Virus genome (UHGV): UHGV-2044750 | Reading direction: 5' to 3' (one strand) | From: a virus | DNA length: 27,057 nt | Part shown: in pieces, positions 4,390-15,084 of the stretch | Position numbering within the stretch: the first letter of the stretch is position 1 | Layout: each line of letters opens with the position of its first letter | The notes under the pieces: model-generated | Databases searched by the model: none | What the model was told of the DNA's origin: nothing | What the model saw: only the letters and a program-made list of their open reading frames with translations | Position numbers and translations under genes: made by a program

Positions 4390-4465
4390 GGCCCTTTAGC
4401 TCAGTGGTGAGAGCGAGCGACTCATAATCGCCAGGTCGCTGGTTCAAATCCAGCAAGGGCCACCA
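4390..4465 (+). tRNA. ileZ: tRNA-Ile (anticodon CAU, lysidine-type AUA reader)
   Basis: Cloverleaf folded by hand: 7-bp acceptor stem GGCCCTT/AAGGGCC, anticodon loop CTCATAA, T-loop TTCAAAT, 3' CCA encoded; closely resembles E. coli tRNA-Ile2. Symbol from the Stx-phage ileZ-argN-argO trio. Confidence 0.85.
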
Positions 4466-4472
4466 TCACATA

Positions 4473-4549
4473 CCGCCATTAGCTCATCAGGAAAGAGCGC
4501 CAGCTTTCGAAGCTGGTTGCGCGGAGTTCGGGTCCCCGAAGGCGGTCCA
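4473..4549 (+). tRNA. argN: tRNA-Arg (anticodon UCG) with one mismatch each in acceptor and T stems
   Basis: Anticodon stem CCAGC/GCTGG with loop TTTCGAA; acceptor CCGCCAT/AAGGCGG has an A-A mispair; T-stem has an A-C mispair; CCA encoded. Symbol is tentative, by order in the trio. Confidence 0.65.
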
Positions 4550-4562
4550 TTATCTGTATCCT

Positions 4563-4639
4563 GCGTTGTTAGCTCAGCCGGACAGAGCAATTGCCTTCTA
4601 AGCAATCGGTCACTGGTTCGAATCCAGTACAACGCGCCA
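4563..4639 (+). tRNA. argO: tRNA-Arg (anticodon UCU, reads AGA)
   Basis: Perfect acceptor stem GCGTTGT/ACAACGC, anticodon loop CTTCTAA, T-loop TTCGAAT, CCA encoded. Symbol is tentative, by order in the trio. Confidence 0.85.
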
Positions 4640-4679: not shown

Positions 4680-4875
4680 AAATGTCTCACAATTCAGGCG
4701 GTTGACTGTTGTCTGGTTTGCGGGGAGTTTGTTAAAAGAAACTGGCATGGTGAATCCCCCTGTGCGGAGGGGCAATCAGCGAGTAGGTATATGGGATAAT
4801 CGCGGATTCAGGTGCTGGTACTGAATTCACCGGGAGGCACCCGGCACCATGCAATGGCACATAGCGCCACTCTCC

Positions 4876-4910
4876 AGCCCCTCTCCGGAGGGGCTGTTTA
4901 TATTGATTTT
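4876..4910 (+). terminator. Rho-independent terminator
   Basis: Perfect 8-bp stem AGCCCCTC/GAGGGGCT with TCCG loop, followed by GTTTATATTGATTTT. Confidence 0.45.
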
Positions 4911-5266: not shown

Positions 5267-5526
5267 TTAGTTTCCTTGTTTATGCCTTGCTGGTGATGTT
5301 CTGAAAAGTATAAATGATATTTTTGATTGTAAACCATAGAGCAGAATTATTTTTCTGATGTTGTTTATTGTTTATTTAAATGCAGGGTGGTTTATATCTC
5401 GTCTTGTAGTTTATCCATGCATATCTGCTTGATGATGAGGTTTTTATTTAAGGTATGGTTTTGTGTTTTTTCTGTATTACATGTCAGGTATTTTAAAGAA
5501 TTATTTTTCAGATGGTGGAAAGAACC

Positions 5527-7377
5527 ATGGCATTTAAACACTATGATGTTGTCAGGGCGGCGTCGCCGTCAGATCTTGCGGAAAAGCTGACACATAAACT
5601 GAAAGAAGGCTGGCAGCCGTTTGGTAGTCCGGTGGCCATAACCCCTTATACCCTGATGCAGGCGATTGCAGCAGAAGGTGATGTGGTCGTCAGTGGTGCA
5701 ACTGAGCCAGAGTGGTACTACGTCATCGTACTGGCCGGGCAATCCAATGCCATGGCTTATGGTGAAGGGCTTCCGCTTCCGGATTCATACGATGCGCCCC
5801 ATCCGCGCATTAAGCAACTGGCCCGTCGTAACACAGTGACTCCCGGTGGTGAAGTATGCGTATTTAACGACATCATTCCTGCTGACCATTGTCTGCATGA
5901 TGTTCAGGATATGAGTACGATTAACCATCCCCGGGCTGACCTGAGCAAAGGGCAGTACGGCTGTGTCGGACAGGGCTTACATATTGCCAAAAAACTGCTT
6001 CCGTATATCCCTAATAATGCGGGGATCCTGCTGGTACCATGCTGTCGTGGTGGTTCGGCATTCACCCAGGGCACGGAGGGGACATTCAGCGAGTCCACGG
6101 GGGCCAGTCAGGATTCGGCTCGCTGGGGAGTGGGTAAGCCGTTATATCAGGATCTGCTTTTCCGCACGAAGGCAGCATTGCAGAAAAACCCGAAAAACGT
6201 TTTGCTGGCGATATGCTGGATGCAGGGGGAATTCGATATGACGAATGCCAGTTACGCCCAGCAGCCAGCAGCATTTCTTGCAATGGTACAGCAGTTCCGT
6301 GCTGACTTTGCCGGGCTGGCGGCGCAGTGTCACGGTGGAAGTCCGGCATCAGTCCCCTGGATTTGTGGCGACACGACATACGCGTGGAAACAAGAACACG
6401 GTACGCAATATGAAGTGGTATATGGTGCATATAAAGGTAAAGAATCCCAGCAGATTTATTTTGTTCCCTTTATGACCGATGGTAGCGGAGTTAATACACC
6501 GACAAACAACCCGTCAGAAGATCCTGATATTGCCGGGTCTGGTTATTACGGTTCGGCATCCCGAACGAACAAAAACTGGGTATCATCAAATCGCCCGACG
6601 CATTTCAGCTCATGGGCGCGTCGTGGCATTATTCCCGATCGTATGGCAACTGCTATTCTGAACGTAGCCGGTCGCACCTTAGCCTTCATTAGTGGTAAGG
6701 CACCGGAAATCAAACCCTCGCCCGGCGGCGACACGCCATCGGGGCCGTCTGAAGATGCATCCGTACGCACAATCTCCCTGTTGCCGACAGCCGGAGATGC
6801 TGCTGCGCAGGGCTGGAGCATTAAGAATGGCGGAATTCAGTTGTCAGATGGTGTATTTAAGATCACCAAGCAGAGCAATAAAACCTGGTCCCTGATGCAT
6901 CCGGTGGATGACGCAATTACCCTGCTGACACAGGGCGGCAGACTGACCTGTAAGTTCCGCCTCTCAGGCGCACTGACCAACAATCAGTTCGGGCTGGGGA
7001 TTTATCTGTATACGGACGCTCCCGTTCCTGATGATGTGGCGATGACGGGTACTGGTAATCCGTTCCTGATGTCTTACTTCACTCAGACCACTGACGGCAG
7101 AGTGAATCTGATGCATCACAGGAAAGCCGGAAACACGAAGCTGGGGGAGTTCGGCGATTACGGTAACGACTGGCAGACGCTGGAGCTGGTGTTCACCGCC
7201 GGCAGTGCCACGGTTACTCCGAAACTGAATGGAGTGGCTGGCCCGGCATTCCAGGTTATAAAAGACAGTCTGACACTGGGACTGAATGCGCTGACGCTGA
7301 CGGATGTTACAAAAAGTGCAGCGTATGGCGTTGAGATAGAAAGTCTGGTGCTGGAGATAAATGCACCGGCAGCATAA
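5527..7377 (+). CDS. nanS: Prophage sialate O-acetylesterase, NanS-p type (DUF1737 N-domain plus SGNH/SASA esterase domain)
   Basis: N-terminus MAFKHYDVVRAASPSDLAEKL (DUF1737-like) and esterase block LAGQSNAMAYGEG (GQSN motif); about 616 aa; sits between the tRNA cluster and the lysis genes as nanS-p does in Stx-type prophages. The upstream in-frame ATG 5512 lacks an SD. Confidence 0.85.
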   Translation: MAFKHYDVVRAASPSDLAEKLTHKLKEGWQPFGSPVAITPYTLMQAIAAEGDVVVSGATEPEWYYVIVLAGQSNAMAYGEGLPLPDSYDAPHPRIKQLARRNTVTPGGEVCVFNDIIPADHCLHDVQDMSTINHPRADLSKGQYGCVGQGLHIAKKLLPYIPNNAGILLVPCCRGGSAFTQGTEGTFSESTGASQDSARWGVGKPLYQDLLFRTKAALQKNPKNVLLAICWMQGEFDMTNASYAQQPAAFLAMVQQFRADFAGLAAQCHGGSPASVPWICGDTTYAWKQEHGTQYEVVYGAYKGKESQQIYFVPFMTDGSGVNTPTNNPSEDPDIAGSGYYGSASRTNKNWVSSNRPTHFSSWARRGIIPDRMATAILNVAGRTLAFISGKAPEIKPSPGGDTPSGPSEDASVRTISLLPTAGDAAAQGWSIKNGGIQLSDGVFKITKQSNKTWSLMHPVDDAITLLTQGGRLTCKFRLSGALTNNQFGLGIYLYTDAPVPDDVAMTGTGNPFLMSYFTQTTDGRVNLMHHRKAGNTKLGEFGDYGNDWQTLELVFTAGSATVTPKLNGVAGPAFQVIKDSLTLGLNALTLTDVTKSAAYGVEIESLVLEINAPAA

Positions 7378-7670: not shown

Positions 7671-7877
7671 ATGGAAAAAATCACAACAGGTGTGTCATAC
7701 ACCACGTCAGCGGTGGGGACGGGATACTGGTTACTGCAGCTGCTGGACAAAGTCTCTCCGTCCCAGTGGGTGGCAATAGGTGTGCTGGGGAGTCTGCTGT
7801 TTGGCCTGCTGACGTATCTGACAAACCTTTATTTCAAGATTAAAGAAGATAAGCGCAAGGCTGCGAGAGGTGAATAA
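7671..7877 (+). CDS. S: Class II holin (pinholin), phage-21 S21 type
   Basis: 68 aa with two TM segments; the C-terminal part ([20 protein letters not shown]) matches my recollection of S21; GGAGA SD 10 nt upstream; stop overlaps the endolysin start (TAATG). Confidence 0.85.
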
Positions 7878-8377
7878 TGCCTCCATCATTACGAANNNNN
7901 NNNNNNNNNNNNNNNNNNNNNNNNNNNGCTGTTGCCATAGCGTCTGTGCTCATCACTGGTCCGAGTGGTGACGATGGCCTGGAAGGTGTCAGCTACATAC
8001 CATACGAAGATATCGTTGGCGTATGGACTGTATGTCACGGACACACCGGAAAAGACATCATGCCCGGTAAAACGTATACCGAAGCAGAATGCAAAGCCCT
8101 CCTGAATAAAGACCTTGCCACGGTCGCCAGACAAATAAACCCGTACATCAACGTCGATATACCGGAAACAACGCGCGGCGCTCTTTACTCGTTCGTTTAC
8201 AACGTGGGCGCTGGCAATTTCAGAACATCGACGCTTCTTCGCAAAATAAACCAGGGCGATATCAAAGGCGCATGTGATCAGCTACGGCGCTGGACATACG
8301 CTGGCGGTAAGCAATGGAAAGGGCTGATGACTCGCCGTGAGATTGAGCGTGAAGTCTGTTTGTGGGGGCAACAATGA
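7877..8377 (+). CDS. R: SAR endolysin (T4-lysozyme-like muramidase, R21 type); N-terminal SAR region partly masked by an N-run
   Basis: MPPSLR...[14 protein letters not shown] signal-anchor-release N-terminus and lysozyme core ([11 protein letters not shown]..., YNVGAGNF); 32 N at 7896-7927 are in frame. Confidence 0.85.
7896..7927. other. Run of 32 N (unresolved or masked bases) inside the endolysin gene
   Basis: Literal n characters in the sequence. Confidence 1.
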
Positions 8378-8810
8378 GCAGAGTAACCGCGATTATCTAC
8401 GTTCTGGTCATCTGCCTCATCGTCTGCCTTTCATGGGCTGTTAATCATTACCGTGATAACGCCATCGCCTACAAAGAGCAGCGCGATAAAGCCACATCCA
8501 TCATCGCTGATATGCAGAAGCGGCAACGTGATGTAGCAGAACTTGACGCCAGATACACAAAGGAGCTTGCTGATGCTAATGCGACTATCGAAAGTCTCCG
8601 TGCTGATGTTTCTGCTGGGCGTAAGCGCCTGCAAGTCGCCGCCACCTGTGCAAAGTCNNNNNNNNNNNNNNNNNNATGGGCAATGGAGAAACCCCAGGAC
8701 TTACAGCAGATGCTGAACTCAATTATTACCGTCTCCGAAGTGGAATCGACAGGATAACCGCGCAGGTTAACTACTTGCAGGAGTACATTAGGACGCAATG
8801 CCTTCGATGA
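8374..8810 (+). CDS. Rz: Rz i-spanin (inner membrane spanin); reading frame is broken across an N-run
   Basis: N-terminus [39 protein letters not shown] is Rz-like up to the N-run; after it the Rz C-terminus ([29 protein letters not shown], stop 8808-8810) continues in a different frame, so the N-run length is not the true length. Confidence 0.75.
8573..8757 (+). CDS. Rz1: Rz1 o-spanin (outer membrane lipoprotein) embedded in Rz in an alternative frame; interrupted by the N-run
   Basis: AAGGAG SD 8 nt upstream of ATG 8573; signal peptide [20 protein letters not shown] with lipobox, then a proline-rich stretch (KSPPPV); after the N-run the frame ending at 8757 has an Rz1-like tail ([13 protein letters not shown]). 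Confidence 0.6.
8658..8675. other. Run of 18 N (unresolved or masked bases) inside Rz/Rz1
   Basis: Literal n characters; both Rz and Rz1 change frame across it. Confidence 1.
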
Positions 8811-8882
8811 TAGCGATAATTTTCCCATTATCTTTTATATGCGTGATTTTAGTTAGTTTTAGTCGCAACACGAATAAAACAG

Positions 8883-8909
8883 AGAACCACCCGCTATACG
8901 AGTGGTTCT
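8883..8909. terminator. Hairpin between convergent Rz and the minus-strand moron gene (likely bidirectional terminator)
   Basis: 8-bp stem AGAACCAC/GTGGTTCT with 11-nt loop; U-rich flank on the minus-strand side. Confidence 0.4.
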
Positions 8910-8926
8910 GATTTACACTTTTGAAA

Positions 8927-9157
8927 CTAAAAGCTAAATACTTGAGCAAGAACAGCTAACGCTGCGCAAAAAGCAGCCCGTTTATTCCATTTACTTTGTA
9001 TTTCAATGGCTTTAAAACAACCCAGTGATGAGAAACTGCCTTGTTCCGTTTTTGGTGGGTGTTCTTTGGAAGATGCAAAACATGAAATAATCCAAAAAAT
9101 GGCGGAAAAAATTCCAAAAATTATTGAAGGCAAATGATGCTCTTTCAAAAACTCCAT
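8927..9157 (-). CDS. Small hydrophobic protein (76 aa), possible lipoprotein, in the position lambda uses for bor
   Basis: Minus-strand ORF convergent with Rz; hydrophobic N-terminus LPSIIFGIFSAIFWIISC ending in a lipobox-like IISC; not similar to lambda Bor by eye. Confidence 0.5.
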   Translation of the reverse strand: MEFLKEHHLPSIIFGIFSAIFWIISCFASSKEHPPKTEQGSFSSLGCFKAIEIQSKWNKRAAFCAALAVLAQVFSF

Positions 9158-9832
9158 GACTTAACTCTCTTAAAAGTTGCTAAACATCGCTCGCAAACAA
9201 GAAAGAAAAGTTCTGTTGCGAGCACTCCACAATTTAAACGCCACACAAGCAGCTATTAGGTGGACGGTTCCAAGATTGCTATCAACTGCCACCCGAATAC
9301 CGTCAAAACTTGACGTCCAACCAAGAATTATTGAGTTGTAAACTCAACGCAATGATCTGGTTGGTATAAATGTGACATATGTCATGAATCGACTAGTTGA
9401 GATAGTCAAGATGGGCTTGCTTGACATCATCACCACAACCGGAGCCAACAATGGCAGATTGCGTTACCCAGATTTGATAAAGGCATTTTAGCCTGACATA
9501 ACTATGCACTGTATCGTCGCCGTATTCCCGCATCAACAGAGACCACAGCCCGAGAGGGAGACTCCTCTGCGCGAGTGTGCGGGGATAATCAAAAACGATA
9601 CACACCGGGGTTTACCGTGTTAACGGAGCGCGGCGTTGTCCCCTCATGGTCGCTGGTCCGGTGCGATGGTGGAAGAAACCGGACGATGTGTTACCTCGCA
9701 AACTCTGTTATGTCATGTGTCTGATTTGTGATTTAAGTCGGATAATTGTCATTGCCATTAAGCAGAGGATTGATGACCGACAGGGCTGCATTGTTAGAAT
9801 AAGACTTATTCTTATCTATGCCGGGAATAAAA

Positions 9833-10159
9833 ATGAAAAGAAATCTTCCGTTAATTATTTTGTTGTCTTCTTTGGTTATGGGCTGTACGCAACATAAAAC
9901 AGATATGCCTCGACAGTTGGTTAAGGCATTACCACAATATCCGGCCTATGCCGCGGCAAATTATATAAAGGGACGGGTTGATGTGAAGTTTGATATTGGT
10001 GCTGATGGTACTGTCACCCGAATTGAGTTTATCCGTTCAGAGCCGCACCATCTGTTTGATGAGCAGGTTGTAAAGGCGATGGCAAAATGGCGATTTGAGA
10101 AGGACAAGCCGCGTAAAGGCGTGAAGAAAACATTTATCTTTAGTCCTTCAGCACCCTGA
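9833..10159 (+). CDS. Lipoprotein with TonB C-terminal-like domain (108 aa)
   Basis: Signal peptide MKRNLPLIILLSSLVMGC with lipobox LVMGC (Thr at +2); the mature part aligns by eye to the E. coli TonB C-terminal domain (YP..A....I.G.V.VKFD...DG.V......S.P...F...V..AM..WR.E..KP). ATG 9818 is an alternative start. Confidence 0.75.
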   Translation: MKRNLPLIILLSSLVMGCTQHKTDMPRQLVKALPQYPAYAAANYIKGRVDVKFDIGADGTVTRIEFIRSEPHHLFDEQVVKAMAKWRFEKDKPRKGVKKTFIFSPSAP

Positions 10160-10669
10160 TTATTTTATCAGAAGTTAATTATCACTCTGTTGCTATTCAG
10201 TACATCCCTGCAGGGTAAAGTCTTGTTTCGCCGGATATGAAGATGAAATATTGTTAGAAGACAGTAGCTACCGGTTCCTGTAACCGAACGTTCATTTCTC
10301 GTTATTTTTCATGCTGGCCGGGCGCAGGTGCTTTGCATCTGTTGCCAGCCTTCTCCTGCAGGCTTCAATAACCCATGCCGAAAAATTACCCGATCCCTTA
10401 CGTTCAAGGGCAATATGGATTTGATTAATCATCTGGTTTGGGAAGCTTTATTTTTTGATGACATTGTGTTTTTCCGTGTTCAGTGCTGCTGATTTGTATT
10501 GTCTTAAGATGTCTTTACGTTAAGTTGACACAGATCAATTAATGCATGACTTGGACAAAATTGATTATTTGTCGTGGTTTTATGGTGTACGTGGGATGTG
10601 TGATGGTATTTATATAAATGATAATTATTATCATTTATTGGGTCCTTTCCGGCGATCCGGCAGGCTACG

Positions 10670-10681
10670 GGGCGGCGACCT
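10670..10681. other. cosN: 12-nt cohesive-end sequence GGGCGGCGACCT (lambda-type)
   Basis: Exact match to the lambda cohesive end; the flanks ...TTTCCGGCGATCCGGCAGGCTACG | and | CGCGGGTTTTCGCTATTTATGAAAATTTTCCGG are close to my recollection of the lambda genome ends. Confidence 0.85.
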
Positions 10682-10721
10682 CGCGGGTTTTCGCTATTTA
10701 TGAAAATTTTCCGGGGAAAAT

Positions 10722-10830
10722 CATGTCGGTACTTCTCGAACATAACTATTTGTTTTTTCTAATATCGAATCCGTAAAAGGTCCGACATGAAAACGCCTAA
10801 AAAAGTCATTTTCGGGCACTTTCATGTCGG
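10722..10830. repeat. Candidate cosB R-site repeats: three copies of a CATGTCGG core (10722-10729 direct, 10782-10789 inverted, 10823-10830 direct)
   Basis: Repeats lie between cosN and the Nu1 start, where lambda has its R3/R2/R1 sites, but with a different sequence; an AT-rich spacer between copies 1 and 2 could hold an IHF site. Confidence 0.4.
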
Positions 10831-10857
10831 CCCCTGTATTTATTGTGAGACTGTTTC

Positions 10858-11377
10858 ATGAAGGTTAATAAAAAGAAACTTGCCGAAATTTTCAACGTGG
10901 ATCCGCGAACGATTGAACGCTGGCAGTCTCAGGGACTCCCTTGTGTCTCCGGAGGTGGTAAGGGCGTTGAATCTGTATTTGATACCGCCATGGCAATTCA
11001 GTGGTATGCGCAGAGGGAAGCTGATATCGAAAATGAAAAACTCCGTAAAGAGGTTGAGGATTACAGGGCTGCCAGTGAGGCAGATCTCCAGCCTGGGACT
11101 ATTGAGTACGAACGCCATCGACTTACGCGTGCGCAGGCCGACGCACAGGAGCTGAAGAATGCCAGAGACTCCGCAGAGGTGGTGGAAACCGCATTCTGTA
11201 CTTTCGTGCTGTCACGGATCGCAGGTGAAATTGCCAGTATTCTTGACGGGATCCCTCTCTCGGTACAGCGGCGTTTTCCGGAACTGGAAAACCGACATGT
11301 TGATTTCCTGAAACGGGATATCATCAAAGCCATGAACAAAGCAGCCGCGCTGGATGAACTGATACCGGGGTTGCTGA

Positions 11378-11403
<26 letters not shown>
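10858..11403 (+). CDS. Nu1: Terminase small subunit Nu1 (N-terminal DNA-binding domain diverged from lambda, C-terminal two-thirds lambda-identical)
   Basis: 181 aa; from about residue 75 ([57 protein letters not shown]...) it matches lambda Nu1 as I recall it; the first ~75 aa are clearly related but diverged. Confidence 0.95.

Positions 11404-15084
<3,681 letters not shown>

What the first reader, a model, noticed from the sequence alone, without database searches (positions are those of the whole stretch)
8883..9230. Small putative lipoprotein in the bor slot with a structured 5' leader
Lambda carries the lipoprotein gene bor on the minus strand just after Rz. Here the same slot holds an unrelated 76-aa minus-strand ORF whose N-terminus looks like a lipoprotein signal peptide (lipobox-like IISC). 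A long imperfect hairpin (9189-9223, about 13 bp of stem) sits in its 5' leader just upstream of the RBS, and a hairpin (8883-8909) separates it from Rz. Small phage lipoproteins in this kind of position often mediate serum resistance or receptor blocking.
Basis: partly seen in the sequence, partly recalled or inferred. Interest (0 to 1): 0.45.

Follow-up and report, generated by a model that had tools for sequence, protein, structure and literature searches.

The report
Prophage membrane-protein gene in pid slot
The small reverse-strand gene after the phage lysis genes is real, but it encodes a two-helix membrane protein of unknown function rather than a lipoprotein, and it appears to use the same promoter and long hairpin-containing leader as the characterised pid accessory gene of phage P22.

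Summary
A 76-aa minus-strand ORF (8927-9157) lies after Rz. A strong terminator hairpin (8883-8909) follows it and a leader hairpin (9189-9223) precedes it.

The lipoprotein reading fails. The ORF belongs to an uncharacterised family (phrog_14357, about 35-40 clusters, 75-105 aa). In that family 22 of 25 members lack the lipobox cysteine. The n-region has net charge -1, and a second hydrophobic helix ends the protein. AlphaFold2 gives a two-helix hairpin. Charges weakly favour a cytoplasmic loop.

The locus matches the P22 pid moron. Window 9197-9458 is a decayed Terminase_2 terS fragment homologous to the P22 pid promoter and 174-nt 5'UTR, which were mapped experimentally (PMC8835761). By alignment the window has -35 TTGCGT, -10 AATTCT, a TSS near 9317 and a leader of about 160 nt that contains the hairpin. 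The hairpin keeps its pairing through three compensatory double changes. Pid and ORF76 are unrelated proteins.

In 23 other enterobacterial species, most loci carry a different unrelated ORF next to the terS start.

Protein function is unknown. My guess is a role in phage-phage conflict at the inner membrane. Moderately interesting: a new variant of a known kind.

The parts
8927..9157 (-). CDS 'ORF76' (76 aa plus stop). Member of the uncharacterised family phrog_14357. Predicted two-helix (TM1 about 9-27, TM2 about 61-76) inner-membrane hairpin protein.
   Evidence: ORF. PGAP annotates it as WP_157778920.1. Against the Citrobacter ortholog (74% identity), substitutions fall 13/12/26 by codon position and there is one in-frame 3-nt indel. 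Neutral simulation keeps the ORF open in 6.5% of runs, and open with that wobble bias in 0.01%. Family found; PHROG match. AlphaFold2 pLDDT 77.7 with helices 3-27 and 44-75. Hydropathy 2.16 and 2.09 for the two segments.
8873..8909 (-). Rho-independent terminator of ORF76: stem-loop 8883-8909 plus T-run 8873-8882.
   Evidence: Terminator scan finds 12 pairs, 6 of them G-C, with tail CTGTTTTATT. Fold z = -4.57. Coordinates checked. The P22 pid locus has an analogous terminator that was shown to be needed for transcript stability (PMC8835761).
9158..9171 (-). Ribosome-binding region: weak SD AAGAGAG (9165-9171) 7 nt before the ATG. Predicted to pair with codons 3-6 in a local SD/start-sequestering hairpin.
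   Evidence: Sequence. The local hairpin is predicted in both E. coli and C. sedlakii, where an AA to GG change keeps pairing with UU. This rests on prediction only.
9189..9223 (-). Conserved leader hairpin, 32 nt upstream of the start codon. It is the antisense of codons 2-13 of a Terminase_2 terS.
   Evidence: Folds. On the 12-sequence alignment 93.6% of cells pair. Three pairs change on both sides (GC to AU, AU to GC, GC to AU), all in the window lineage where terS is dead; 3 of 500 shuffles reach this. The consensus hairpin folds at -22.1 kcal/mol on the cargo strand against -13.7 on the terS strand.
9317..9352 (-). Predicted promoter homologous to P22 Ppid: -35 TTGCGT (9347-9352), 17-nt spacer, -10 AATTCT (9324-9329), predicted TSS about 9317. 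This gives a 5'UTR of about 160 nt.
   Evidence: Alignment to P22, coordinates. In P22 the -10 is AATCCT at -186..-181, up-mutations C-183A and C-182A lie in it, and dRNA-seq in BTP1 places the TSS at -174 (PMC8835761). Activity in this prophage was not tested.
9177..9458 (+). Decayed Terminase_2 small-terminase (terS) remnant. Its antisense strand supplies the promoter and 5'UTR of ORF76.
   Evidence: The translation carries the LNATQAAIR motif, but the start codon is lost and the frame is broken by 2-, 4- and 1-nt indels relative to intact terS. It is about 82% identical to P22-like phages over 9197-9400 and visibly more conserved over about 9307-9458. Homology ends at the first 8 nt of P22 ORF80. 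The phage's working terminase is Nu1/gpA at 10858-13303.

Best explanation
ORF76 is the cargo of a self-contained accessory ('moron') cassette in the late region of a lambdoid E. coli prophage.

Transcription. It most likely starts at a weak sigma-70 promoter (TTGCGT-17-AATTCT, TSS about 9317) on the antisense strand of a dead terS fragment. It runs through a leader of about 160 nt carrying a conserved stem-loop (9189-9223), then the 76-codon ORF. It stops at a strong intrinsic terminator (8883-8909) before reaching Rz. This shell descends from the same ancestral arrangement as the P22 pid locus. By analogy, expression should be low in a single-copy lysogen and rise with phage genome copy number, as in the carrier state or early after infection. 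Q-antiterminated late transcription running the opposite way should oppose it.

Protein. The product is not a lipoprotein. It is a helical hairpin with two hydrophobic helices joined by a 33-residue polar loop that carries 6 K/R and 3 D/E. Loop-in, termini-out is the weakly favoured orientation.

Function (inferred, not shown). It acts at the cytoplasmic membrane for the benefit of the resident phage. The most likely role is phage-phage conflict: superinfection exclusion or abortive infection at the DNA-entry or membrane-integrity step.

Shown here: coding status, family membership, lack of a conserved lipobox, two-helix model, homology of the shell to Ppid and its 5'UTR, hairpin conservation, terminator.

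Inferred: promoter activity here, expression pattern, topology, biological role.

The confidence of 0.7 applies to the gene, the protein class and the pid-type shell. The proposed biological role alone I put at about 0.3.
For: Coding status and family:
- The C. sedlakii ortholog shows wobble-biased change and an in-frame indel, while the adjacent terS remnant has frame-breaking indels.
- The + strand ORF that shares the same wobble positions is not open in C. sedlakii.
- 22 library representatives and 34 clusters share invariant W22, Q54 and N58.
- phrog_14357 matches 18 of 20 members, best E 1.9e-32.

Not a lipoprotein: (22 of 25 members lack a lipobox).

Fold and hydropathy. Pooled charges over 25 members are loop +145/-109, N-terminus 23/21, C-tail 2/2.

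Shell homology: with the experimental P22 data in PMC8835761 and PMC3573128.

Context of family members:
- They abut an intact Terminase_2 terS at 20-27 nt in L003, L023 and L052. With so small a gap, their promoter should lie inside terS.
- They abut truncated terS stubs with different end points in the window, L017 and L019.

Hairpin. Terminator.

Moron signature:
- GC is 36% in the ORF against 53% for the window.
- Only 11 of 5,426 complete E. coli genomes carry the cassette, while 1,968 share the adjacent Rz end.
Against: - No expression data exist for this locus.
- The promoter hexamers are each only 3/6 to consensus, and the simple promoter scan did not flag them.
- In P22 a fragment starting at -232 lost promoter activity, so sequences further upstream matter. 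The window is homologous only to about -301.
- The whole-leader fold is not unusually stable (z = 0.10).
- All three compensatory pairs come from one lineage. Template-switch 'quasipalindrome correction' could produce them without selection.
- Some intact-terS variants break single pairs.
- Nothing here bears directly on protein function: no PADLOC, Pfam, NCBIfam or PDB match and no significant fold match.
- No member was found in 50,697 sequenced phage genomes by tblastn.
Confidence: 0.7

Rival explanations
1. It is a small outer-membrane or periplasmic lipoprotein, functionally like Bor, Cor or Llp, processed by signal peptidase II at Cys26.
For: IISC fits the lipobox pattern. Cys26 lies in the allowed range and K5 is in the n-region. 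The motif is kept in the closest homolog, C. sedlakii (IVSC). The position after Rz on the opposite strand resembles lambda bor.
Against: 22 of 25 family members have no lipobox Cys. The next-closest homologs read WVCSSF, LWLASAF and LWVMSAF. The n-region has net charge -1. The hydrophobic run before the Cys is long. The 'mature' part would end in a 16-residue hydrophobic helix that is conserved family-wide. AlphaFold2 shows a helical hairpin. No Pfam family reaches threshold.
Confidence: 0.04
2. It is a membrane-damaging toxin (type I toxin-like or holin/SLATT-like pore former) kept silent by its structured leader, by SD sequestration and by antisense late transcription. It would act in abortive infection, lysis timing or post-segregational killing.
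For: The protein is small and has two hydrophobic helices with conserved polar residues (Q54, N58, Q72). The SD and start codon are predicted to be sequestered in both orthologs. The promoter is weak and the leader long. Enterobacterial members are always next to the lysis cassette. One member lies about 650 nt upstream of a CBASS-like SAVED/ThiF operon.
Against: At 76-105 aa with a 33-40 aa polar loop it is larger than typical type I toxins. No discrete antitoxin RNA is evident and Rfam finds nothing. It lacks the charged C-terminal tail of holins. It runs opposite to the lysis genes. The single SLATT_5 hit (E = 0.058, 1 of 20 members) is at noise level. PADLOC finds nothing.
Confidence: 0.15
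3. It modulates host physiology, as Pid does. A small membrane protein would bind a host membrane sensor or transporter during the carrier state or lysogeny, with no direct role in phage defence.
For: It has the same expression shell as pid, whose product derepresses the host dgo operon (PMC3573128). Small membrane proteins that regulate sensor kinases and transporters are well known in enterobacteria (my own knowledge). The slot carries very diverse cargo.
Against: No partner has been identified. The family spans hosts as distant as Pseudomonas, Legionellales and alpha-proteobacteria, always on mobile elements. That favours a generic target over a host-specific one.
Confidence: 0.2
4. The hairpin at 9189-9223 is not a leader element of ORF76. 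It is a leftover of the terS gene, for example a structure that tuned terS translation initiation, or simply an accident of conserved codons.
For: It coincides with terS codons 2-13 and is present in every intact terS examined, whatever the neighbouring cargo. It also folds on the terS strand (-13.7 kcal/mol, z = -3.55). Most variation in intact genes is synonymous.
Against: terS is dead in the window, yet pairing is kept through three double changes. Three G-U pairs make the consensus stem 8 kcal/mol more stable on the cargo strand. In P22 the 5'UTR segment +110..+162, which overlaps the 3' arm of the hairpin, is needed for the second pid mRNA species. Terminase-swapped phages keep at least the first 100 nt or so of terS next to the cargo, with different break points.
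Confidence: 0.2
5. ORF76 is a non-functional or decaying ORF carried along with the terS remnant.
For: The cassette is rare: 11 of 5,426 complete E. coli genomes. The E. coli copies are almost identical, so they carry no information on constraint. An ORF this long arises by chance in 36% of shuffles. The SD is weak.
Against: A family of about 35-40 clusters has conserved motifs across several proteobacterial orders. Divergence from the C. sedlakii ortholog is wobble-biased. The ORF is intact while the neighbouring terS has decayed. The only broken copy, P0003, lies in a locus where many neighbouring genes are called as short fragments, which suggests assembly indels (my inference).
Confidence: 0.05

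Closest known systems
Phage P22 / BTP1 pid moron locus (Cenens 2013, PMC3573128; Wolput 2022, PMC8835761)
   Same: Same genomic slot: antisense, between the lysis genes and the packaging genes, abutting a decayed Terminase_2 terS remnant. The promoter region and most of the long 5'UTR are homologous (window 9197-9458 against P22 L025 1501-1765), including the -35, the -10, the TSS position and the hairpin. Both have a small ORF (76 and 86 aa) followed by a rho-independent terminator.
   Different: The cargo proteins are unrelated. Pid is a soluble helical protein that derepresses dgoRKAT; ORF76 is a hydrophobic two-helix protein. The -10 is AATTCT rather than AATCCT. The last 40 nt or so of the leader, the RBS and the terminator are not homologous. 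The host phage uses a lambda-type Nu1/gpA terminase rather than P22 gp3/gp2.
Lambda bor (and the related iss): lipoprotein moron after Rz
   Same: A small gene on the opposite strand immediately after Rz/Rz1, of the kind expected to be expressed from the prophage, with the architecture of a lysogenic-conversion cassette (my own knowledge of lambda).
   Different: No sequence relationship: no Pfam family reaches threshold. Bor is a true lipoprotein. ORF76's lipobox is not conserved and the protein is a two-helix membrane hairpin.
Small inner-membrane superinfection-exclusion proteins (T4 Imm, HK97 gp15, P22 SieA)
   Same: Phage-encoded, small and hydrophobic, acting or predicted to act at the cytoplasmic membrane. 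T4 Imm is of similar size, about 83 aa with two predicted TM segments (my own knowledge).
   Different: No homology was detected or tested, because I held no reference sequences for them. The function of ORF76 is untested. The resemblance is of kind only.
phrog_14357 (PHROGs v4, 'unknown function')
   Same: ORF76 matches it at E = 1.3e-06, residues 3-73 on profile positions 10-87 of 90. 18 of 20 family members match, best E 1.9e-32.
   Different: The family has no annotation, so membership gives a name and not a function. ORF76 and its nearest relatives are the shortest members, with a loop about 6 residues shorter.

Membership tests
Bacterial lipoprotein (signal peptidase II substrate) | Lipobox [LVI][ASTVI][GAS]C with the Cys within about residues 15-35 | tested here: met
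   IISC with Cys26. A pattern match only.
Bacterial lipoprotein (signal peptidase II substrate) | Positively charged n-region followed by a short h-region | tested here: not met
   MEFLKEHH has 1 K against 2 E, net -1. The hydrophobic run L9-S25 is 17 residues.
Bacterial lipoprotein (signal peptidase II substrate) | The acylated Cys is conserved among homologs | tested here: not met
   22 of 25 aligned family members have no lipobox. Only P0001, P0002 and P0021 have one, and in P0021 the Cys is at a different position, Cys24.
Bacterial lipoprotein (signal peptidase II substrate) | Prediction by LipoP/SignalP; globomycin-sensitive processing | not testable with these tools
   These predictors are not available here, and the processing test needs an experiment.
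Lambda Bor / Iss family | Sequence match to the family profile | tested here: not met
   The Pfam scan gave only a sub-threshold Tmemb_14 hit (E = 0.018, 16.1 bits against a cut-off of 24.8).
phrog_14357 | Significant full-length match to the PHROG profile | tested here: met
   E = 1.3e-06 for ORF76. 18 of 20 relatives match, best E 1.9e-32.
Moron (self-contained accessory cassette in a phage genome, sensu Juhala/Hendrix) | Its own terminator | tested here: met
   12-pair stem plus T-run, z = -4.57.
Moron (self-contained accessory cassette in a phage genome, sensu Juhala/Hendrix) | Its own promoter, independent of the flanking operon | tested here: inconclusive
   Sequence homologous to the experimentally mapped P22 Ppid -35, -10 and TSS. 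Activity was not measured here, and each hexamer is 3/6 to consensus.
Moron (self-contained accessory cassette in a phage genome, sensu Juhala/Hendrix) | Present or absent among otherwise related phages; atypical base composition; opposite orientation | tested here: met
   11 of 5,426 genomes carry it, against 1,968 that share the adjacent Rz end. GC is 36% against 53% for the window. It is antisense to the late operon.
P22 pid locus | Homologous promoter/5'UTR shell in the same slot | tested here: met
   Window 9197-9458 aligns with P22 L025 1501-1765. It includes the shared junction with the first 8 nt of ORF80.
P22 pid locus | Encodes a Pid homolog | tested here: not met
   On inspection the Pid sequence shares neither sequence nor hydropathy character with ORF76. 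tblastn of ORF76 and of P0030 against all phage records finds nothing.
Holin | Small TM protein with a charged hydrophilic C-terminal tail, encoded in the lysis cassette and co-transcribed with the endolysin | tested here: not met
   The protein ends in the hydrophobic helix with no charged tail. It lies on the opposite strand. The cassette already has an S21-type holin at 7671-7877.
Type I toxin-antitoxin | A dedicated antisense RNA antitoxin, and toxicity on expression | not tested
   No Rfam family matches in 8700-10900. The only obvious antisense RNA is the late transcript. Toxicity needs an experiment.

The most novel reading that the evidence does not exclude
The first 200 nt or so of enterobacterial Terminase_2 terS genes may double, on the antisense strand, as a portable expression platform for accessory genes. 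The platform would be a weak Ppid-type promoter plus a conserved hairpin-containing leader.

Dozens of unrelated morons sit 15-35 nt from the terS start codon. They include pid, phrog_14357 and genes for lipoproteins, YodC-like proteins and other membrane proteins. All would be transcribed from inside terS. When a phage swaps its terminase, the cargo keeps a terS stub because the stub is its promoter and leader.

Expression of all these cargo genes would then follow phage genome copy number (carrier state), as shown for pid. Within this reading, phrog_14357 would be a new inner-membrane family involved in phage-phage conflict.
Probability: 0.4. Interest if true: 0.6.

Novelty: new variant of a known kind. 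Interest (0 to 1): 0.42.

Why it matters
The gene is one small moron in a rare E. coli prophage, which includes the prophage in EPEC E2348/69. Three points give it wider use.

- It corrects a tempting mis-annotation. A lipobox-like string is not enough to call a lipoprotein.
- It gives an uncharacterised phage family (phrog_14357) a structural description and a consistent genomic address. That makes the family a tractable candidate for exclusion and defence screens.
- It links the locus to the only experimentally dissected example of this slot, P22 pid. It suggests why pid has an 'exceptionally long 5'UTR': the leader and promoter are the antisense of a terS gene. The same shell appears to serve many unrelated cargo genes.

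If the last point is confirmed, mapped promoter data from one model phage could be transferred to a whole class of prophage accessory genes. It would also explain why terS stubs persist in mosaic phage genomes.

Tried and rejected
- Rfam, at gathering thresholds on the whole window and at permissive E-values on 8700-10900: nothing relevant at the locus.
- Simple sigma-70 scan: it did not flag a promoter upstream of the ORF. The promoter assignment therefore rests on homology to P22.
- Pfam, NCBIfam and PADLOC on 20 family members: only noise-level hits, including Tmemb_14, MARVEL and one SLATT_5 hit at E = 0.058. I rejected the SLATT lead as chance.
- PDB profile search and Foldseek against BFVD: no significant match. 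The afdb50 library was unavailable.
- tblastn of ORF76 and of P0030 against 50,697 phage genomes: no match. Distant blastn of the ORF region found only a 43-nt match to the terminator hairpin in phage Chlobot.
- Genome-contig scan with peptide patterns: no relatives. Viral contigs gave only identical copies.
- + strand 43-aa ORF at 9006-9137, which shares wobble positions with ORF76: rejected as the coding frame because it is not open in C. sedlakii.
- P0003, a 74-aa 'variant': discounted as independent evidence, because many genes around it are called as short fragments.
- Hand search for alternative promoters close to the start codon, for example TTGCGA-16-TTTAAG: not conserved in C. sedlakii, and P22 data show no promoter within -244.
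Full report
**Setting.** The window is the late region of a lambdoid E. coli prophage.
- The 641 bases around the finding are 100% identical to four complete E. coli genomes and 99.8% identical to EPEC E2348/69.
- On the + strand lie a SASA-family esterase (5512-7377), an S21-type holin (7671-7877), the lysozyme RrrD (7877-8377) and Rz with embedded Rz1 (8362-8757).
- After a 2-kb accessory region come the lambda-type terminase genes Nu1 (10858-11403) and gpA (11378-13303).
- The finding lies at the start of that accessory region.

**Observation.**
- The 76-codon minus-strand ORF runs 9157 to 8927. It cannot be extended upstream, because an in-frame TAA lies two codons before the ATG. PGAP annotates it as hypothetical protein WP_157778920.1.
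- The hairpin at 8883-8909 has a 12-pair stem. On the minus strand it is followed by CTGTTTTATT, and it folds far better than shuffles (z = -4.57). It is a good intrinsic terminator for the ORF. No T-run follows it on the + strand.
- The hairpin at 9189-9223 folds at -14.7 kcal/mol (z = -2.75). The 121-nt leader as a whole is not unusually stable (z = 0.10).
- ORF length alone is not evidence. 36% of shuffles of this AT-rich 1-kb stretch give an ORF of at least 76 aa.

**Is it a gene?** Yes.
- A word-indexed search found only three clusters: the E. coli protein itself (586 contigs), a copy with altered reading frame in a locus where many neighbouring genes are called as short fragments, and a 75-aa protein from Citrobacter sedlakii at 74% identity.
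- Against the Citrobacter gene, substitutions fall 13/12/26 on codon positions 1/2/3 (binomial P = 0.007). 19 of the 39 changed codons are synonymous. The only indel is 3 nt.
- In neutral simulations with the same number of substitutions the ORF stays open 6.5% of the time. It stays open with that wobble bias 0.01% of the time.
- The flanking sequence offers an internal control. Over about 130 nt it differs from Citrobacter by indels of 2, 4 and 1 nt.
- A 43-aa + strand ORF (9006-9137) shares the same wobble positions but is not open in Citrobacter.
- An exhaustive HMMER search of 1.84 billion representatives, followed by a profile search, then revealed a family of about 35-40 clusters, 75-105 aa long. 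Members come from Enterobacterales (Yersinia, Pantoea, Hafnia), Pseudomonas, Legionellales and alpha-proteobacteria.
- W22, Q54 and N58 are invariant or nearly so. The family motif is SAxFW ... Q(S/A)KWNxRAA ... Q.
- The family corresponds to phrog_14357, 'unknown function': 18 of 20 members match, best E 1.9e-32, and ORF76 itself matches at 1.3e-06.
- Pfam, NCBIfam, PADLOC and PDB sequence searches and a Foldseek search of viral structures give nothing significant.

**Not a lipoprotein.**
- The string IISC fits a lipobox pattern. The cysteine, however, is present only in the E. coli and Citrobacter proteins, plus one distant member where it sits at a different position.
- 22 of 25 aligned members have no lipobox. 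The next-closest relatives read WVCSSF, LWLASAF and LWVMSAF.
- The n-region MEFLKEHH has net charge -1.
- The hydrophobic segments 9-27 and 61-76 have mean Kyte-Doolittle hydropathy of 2.16 and 2.09, and the second one ends the protein.
- AlphaFold2 with the 25-sequence alignment (mean pLDDT 77.7) gives two long helices, 3-27 and 44-75, joined by a 16-residue loop.
- Pooled over 25 members, the segment between the hydrophobic stretches carries 145 K/R against 109 D/E. The termini are essentially uncharged. In the alignments the K/R lie mostly next to the hydrophobic segments.
- This weakly favours a cytoplasmic loop with both ends facing the periplasm.

**What the 'leader' is.**
- In C. sedlakii the start of the homologous gene lies 27 nt from the start codon of an intact, divergently oriented Terminase_2 small-terminase gene (terS). 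DNA homology with the window continues about 200 nt into that gene.
- The window's 9177-9458 is therefore a dead terS. It keeps the LNATQAAIR motif but has lost its start codon and reading frame. That fits a phage that packages with Nu1/gpA.
- Other family members show the same arrangement:
  - intact terS at about 20 nt in two metagenomic contigs (L023, L052);
  - terS stubs of 31 and 43 codons next to the gene in a Pantoea and a Hafnia prophage that use Sf6-type or Nu1-type terminases.
- In five enterobacterial genera with enough context (Escherichia, Citrobacter, Yersinia, Pantoea, Hafnia) the gene lies antisense to the late operon between the lysis and packaging genes, usually directly after Rz.
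- With only 20-27 nt between the two start codons, the promoter of the small gene should lie inside terS on the antisense strand.

**Link to P22 pid.**
- The terS remnant matches P22-like phages at about 82%.
- In P22 the match is an unannotated terS remnant (L025 1488-1676). Divergent from it and abutting it is pid, annotated 'Pid regulatory protein' in Salmonella phage P6.
[quoted passage not shown] - Its transcription has been dissected (PMC8835761):
  - a weak promoter with an eroded -10, AATCCT, at -186..-181;
  - up-mutations C-183A and C-182A in that -10;
  - a TSS at -174, from dRNA-seq of the identical BTP1 locus;
  - an 'exceptionally long' 174-nt 5'UTR;
  - a second, shorter mRNA species that depends on 5'UTR positions +110..+162;
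  - a rho-independent terminator needed for transcript stability.
- The 2013 paper does not mention terminase at all (0 occurrences). In the parts of the 2022 paper I read, the leader is not linked to terS.
- Aligning P22 with the window places the window's counterparts at -35 TTGCGT (9352-9347; TTGCTT in P22), a 17-nt spacer, -10 AATTCT (9329-9324) and a TSS near 9317. I checked that P22 L025 1631-1636 is AGGATT and that position 1624 aligns with window 9317.
- The predicted leader is about 160 nt and the transcript about 440 nt.
- Homology runs from 9197 to 9458. It ends with the first 8 nt of P22 ORF80. The window's remnant therefore descends from the same decayed arrangement as P22's.
- Pid is a soluble helical protein and ORF76 is hydrophobic. 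The proteins are unrelated, so the shell is shared and the cargo was exchanged.

**The hairpin.** It is the antisense of terS codons 2-13, and it ends 2 nt before the complement of the terS ATG.
- In the consensus of intact genes it folds at -22.1 kcal/mol on the cargo strand (z = -5.9) but only -13.7 on the terS strand. Three G-U pairs become C-A mismatches on that strand. P22 gives -18.0 against -12.7.
- On a 12-sequence alignment 93.6% of cells pair. Sliding the partner by 1-3 columns drops this to 27-54%.
- Three pairs change on both sides (GC to AU, AU to GC, GC to AU); 3 of 500 shuffles reach this.
- All three double changes are in the window, where terS no longer codes. This argues that the stem is maintained for the cargo-strand RNA.
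- Caveats: this is one lineage, and template-switch repair of quasipalindromes could mimic it. Four single changes in intact terS genes break a pair.
- In P22 the hairpin spans transcript positions +94..+134. It overlaps the segment needed for the shorter pid mRNA, and the size of that species (350-400 nt against 476) fits a 5' end at or near the hairpin. I infer that it is a processing or stabilising element. This is not shown.
- A second predicted local stem pairs the weak SD (AAGAGAG) with codons 3-6 in both E. coli and Citrobacter.

**A wider pattern (noticed, partly followed).**
- I scanned one genome per species for a 29-nt piece of the terS 5' end and obtained 23 enterobacterial loci.
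- Most of them carry an ORF divergent from terS, with its RBS 15-35 nt from the terS ATG. The ORFs differ from locus to locus. They include:
  - a classical lipoprotein (L035, MKRWLLIIVMLVISGC);
  - what look like YodC-like proteins (L036, L046);
  - membrane proteins (L030, L037);
  - larger soluble proteins.
- None is Pid or phrog_14357.
- Many of these intact terS genes carry TTGCGT-17-AATTCT at the position of Ppid. The hexamers are the complements of conserved Q-R-N and R-I codons (by inspection).
- The 60 nt or so outside the search pattern are nearly invariant, while the next 100 nt diverge. Ascertainment by the pattern inflates this contrast.

**Mechanism and function.**
- Best supported is a pid-type cassette. 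Transcription is weak, constitutive and dependent on phage copy number. It starts inside the terS remnant, passes a hairpin-bearing leader and the ORF for a two-helix inner-membrane protein, and ends at a strong terminator.
- Late transcription from pR' runs antisense through the whole cassette. It should silence the cassette late in lytic growth (inference).
- The protein's role is unknown. It occurs only on prophages and other mobile elements: antisense in a Pseudomonas prophage early region, next to an integrase and ParA in Methylobacterium, and upstream of a SAVED/ThiF CBASS-like operon in one genome.
- Given that distribution and its membrane location, I favour phage-phage conflict at the inner membrane, at about one chance in three. 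A membrane toxin and a host-physiology modulator are the main rivals.

**Verdict.** The lipoprotein interpretation is wrong. It is a new cargo variant of a known kind of locus, the P22 pid moron, and it encodes a member of an uncharacterised phage protein family. The most interesting by-product is the suggestion that the antisense strand of the terS 5' end is a shared expression platform for many morons. Overall interest is moderate.

Noticed in passing
window 9833-10159 (+): This is the real lipoprotein candidate of the accessory region. It is a 108-aa TonB_C-domain protein (Pfam TonB_C, E = 2.7e-15) with a textbook signal peptide and lipobox, MKRNLPLIILLSSLVMGC. RefSeq annotates it 'TonB family protein'. 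A phage-borne TonB C-terminal domain anchored as a lipoprotein could interfere with TonB-dependent uptake or phage adsorption.
   Followed up: partly
L027-L049 (23 species loci); window 9177-9458: The position divergent from the start codon of Terminase_2 terS genes, and abutting it, looks like a hot-spot for unrelated accessory ORFs: lipoprotein, apparently YodC-like, membrane and larger soluble proteins. The first 100 nt or so of terS are almost invariant at the DNA level across these loci, while the next 100 nt diverge. Part of this contrast comes from using a 29-nt search pattern.
   Followed up: partly
window 9373-9384: A perfect 12-bp palindrome, TGACATATGTCA, lies about 20 nt upstream of the predicted -35. 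P22 has the imperfect TGACATGTGTCA at the same place. The P22 promoter fragment that starts exactly here (Ppid232) had lost activity in PMC8835761. The palindrome or the sequence just upstream of it may therefore be a regulatory site.
   Followed up: no
window 10774-10838 and 10614-10638: A 30-nt imperfect inverted repeat (77% complementary, 5-nt gap) lies just upstream of Nu1. It also produced weak miRNA-hairpin hits on both strands in Rfam. It may belong to the cos region. A perfect 12+12 palindrome, ATAAATGATAAT/ATTATCATTTAT, lies at 10614-10638.
   Followed up: no
window 10292-10432 (-): A second small antisense ORF (46 aa), annotated as a DUF3950 domain-containing protein in RefSeq, lies between the TonB-like gene and Nu1.
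   Followed up: no
window 4390-4636 and 4716-4905 (+): Three tRNA genes are followed by a full-length match to the sRNA family STnc100 (132 bits, E = 3e-29). They lie upstream of the esterase and lysis genes.
   Followed up: no
window about 7895-7930 and 8659-8674: Runs of N (masked bases) interrupt the start of the lysozyme gene and the overlapping Rz/Rz1 region. Translations of these genes therefore contain X stretches.
   Followed up: no
L004 9894-10229; L052 4560-4853: PmrD-family genes (PF11183) sit as opposite-strand inserts upstream of the lysis cassette in related prophages. They are further candidate lysogenic-conversion genes.
   Followed up: no
L022 5001-5252 and 5906-10252: One phrog_14357 member lies co-directionally about 650 nt upstream of a CBASS-like gene set (a SAVED-domain protein, a 448-aa protein and a ThiF/E1-like protein) on an integrase-bearing element. 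This is a single case. It may be coincidence or a hint of a defence-island association.
   Followed up: no
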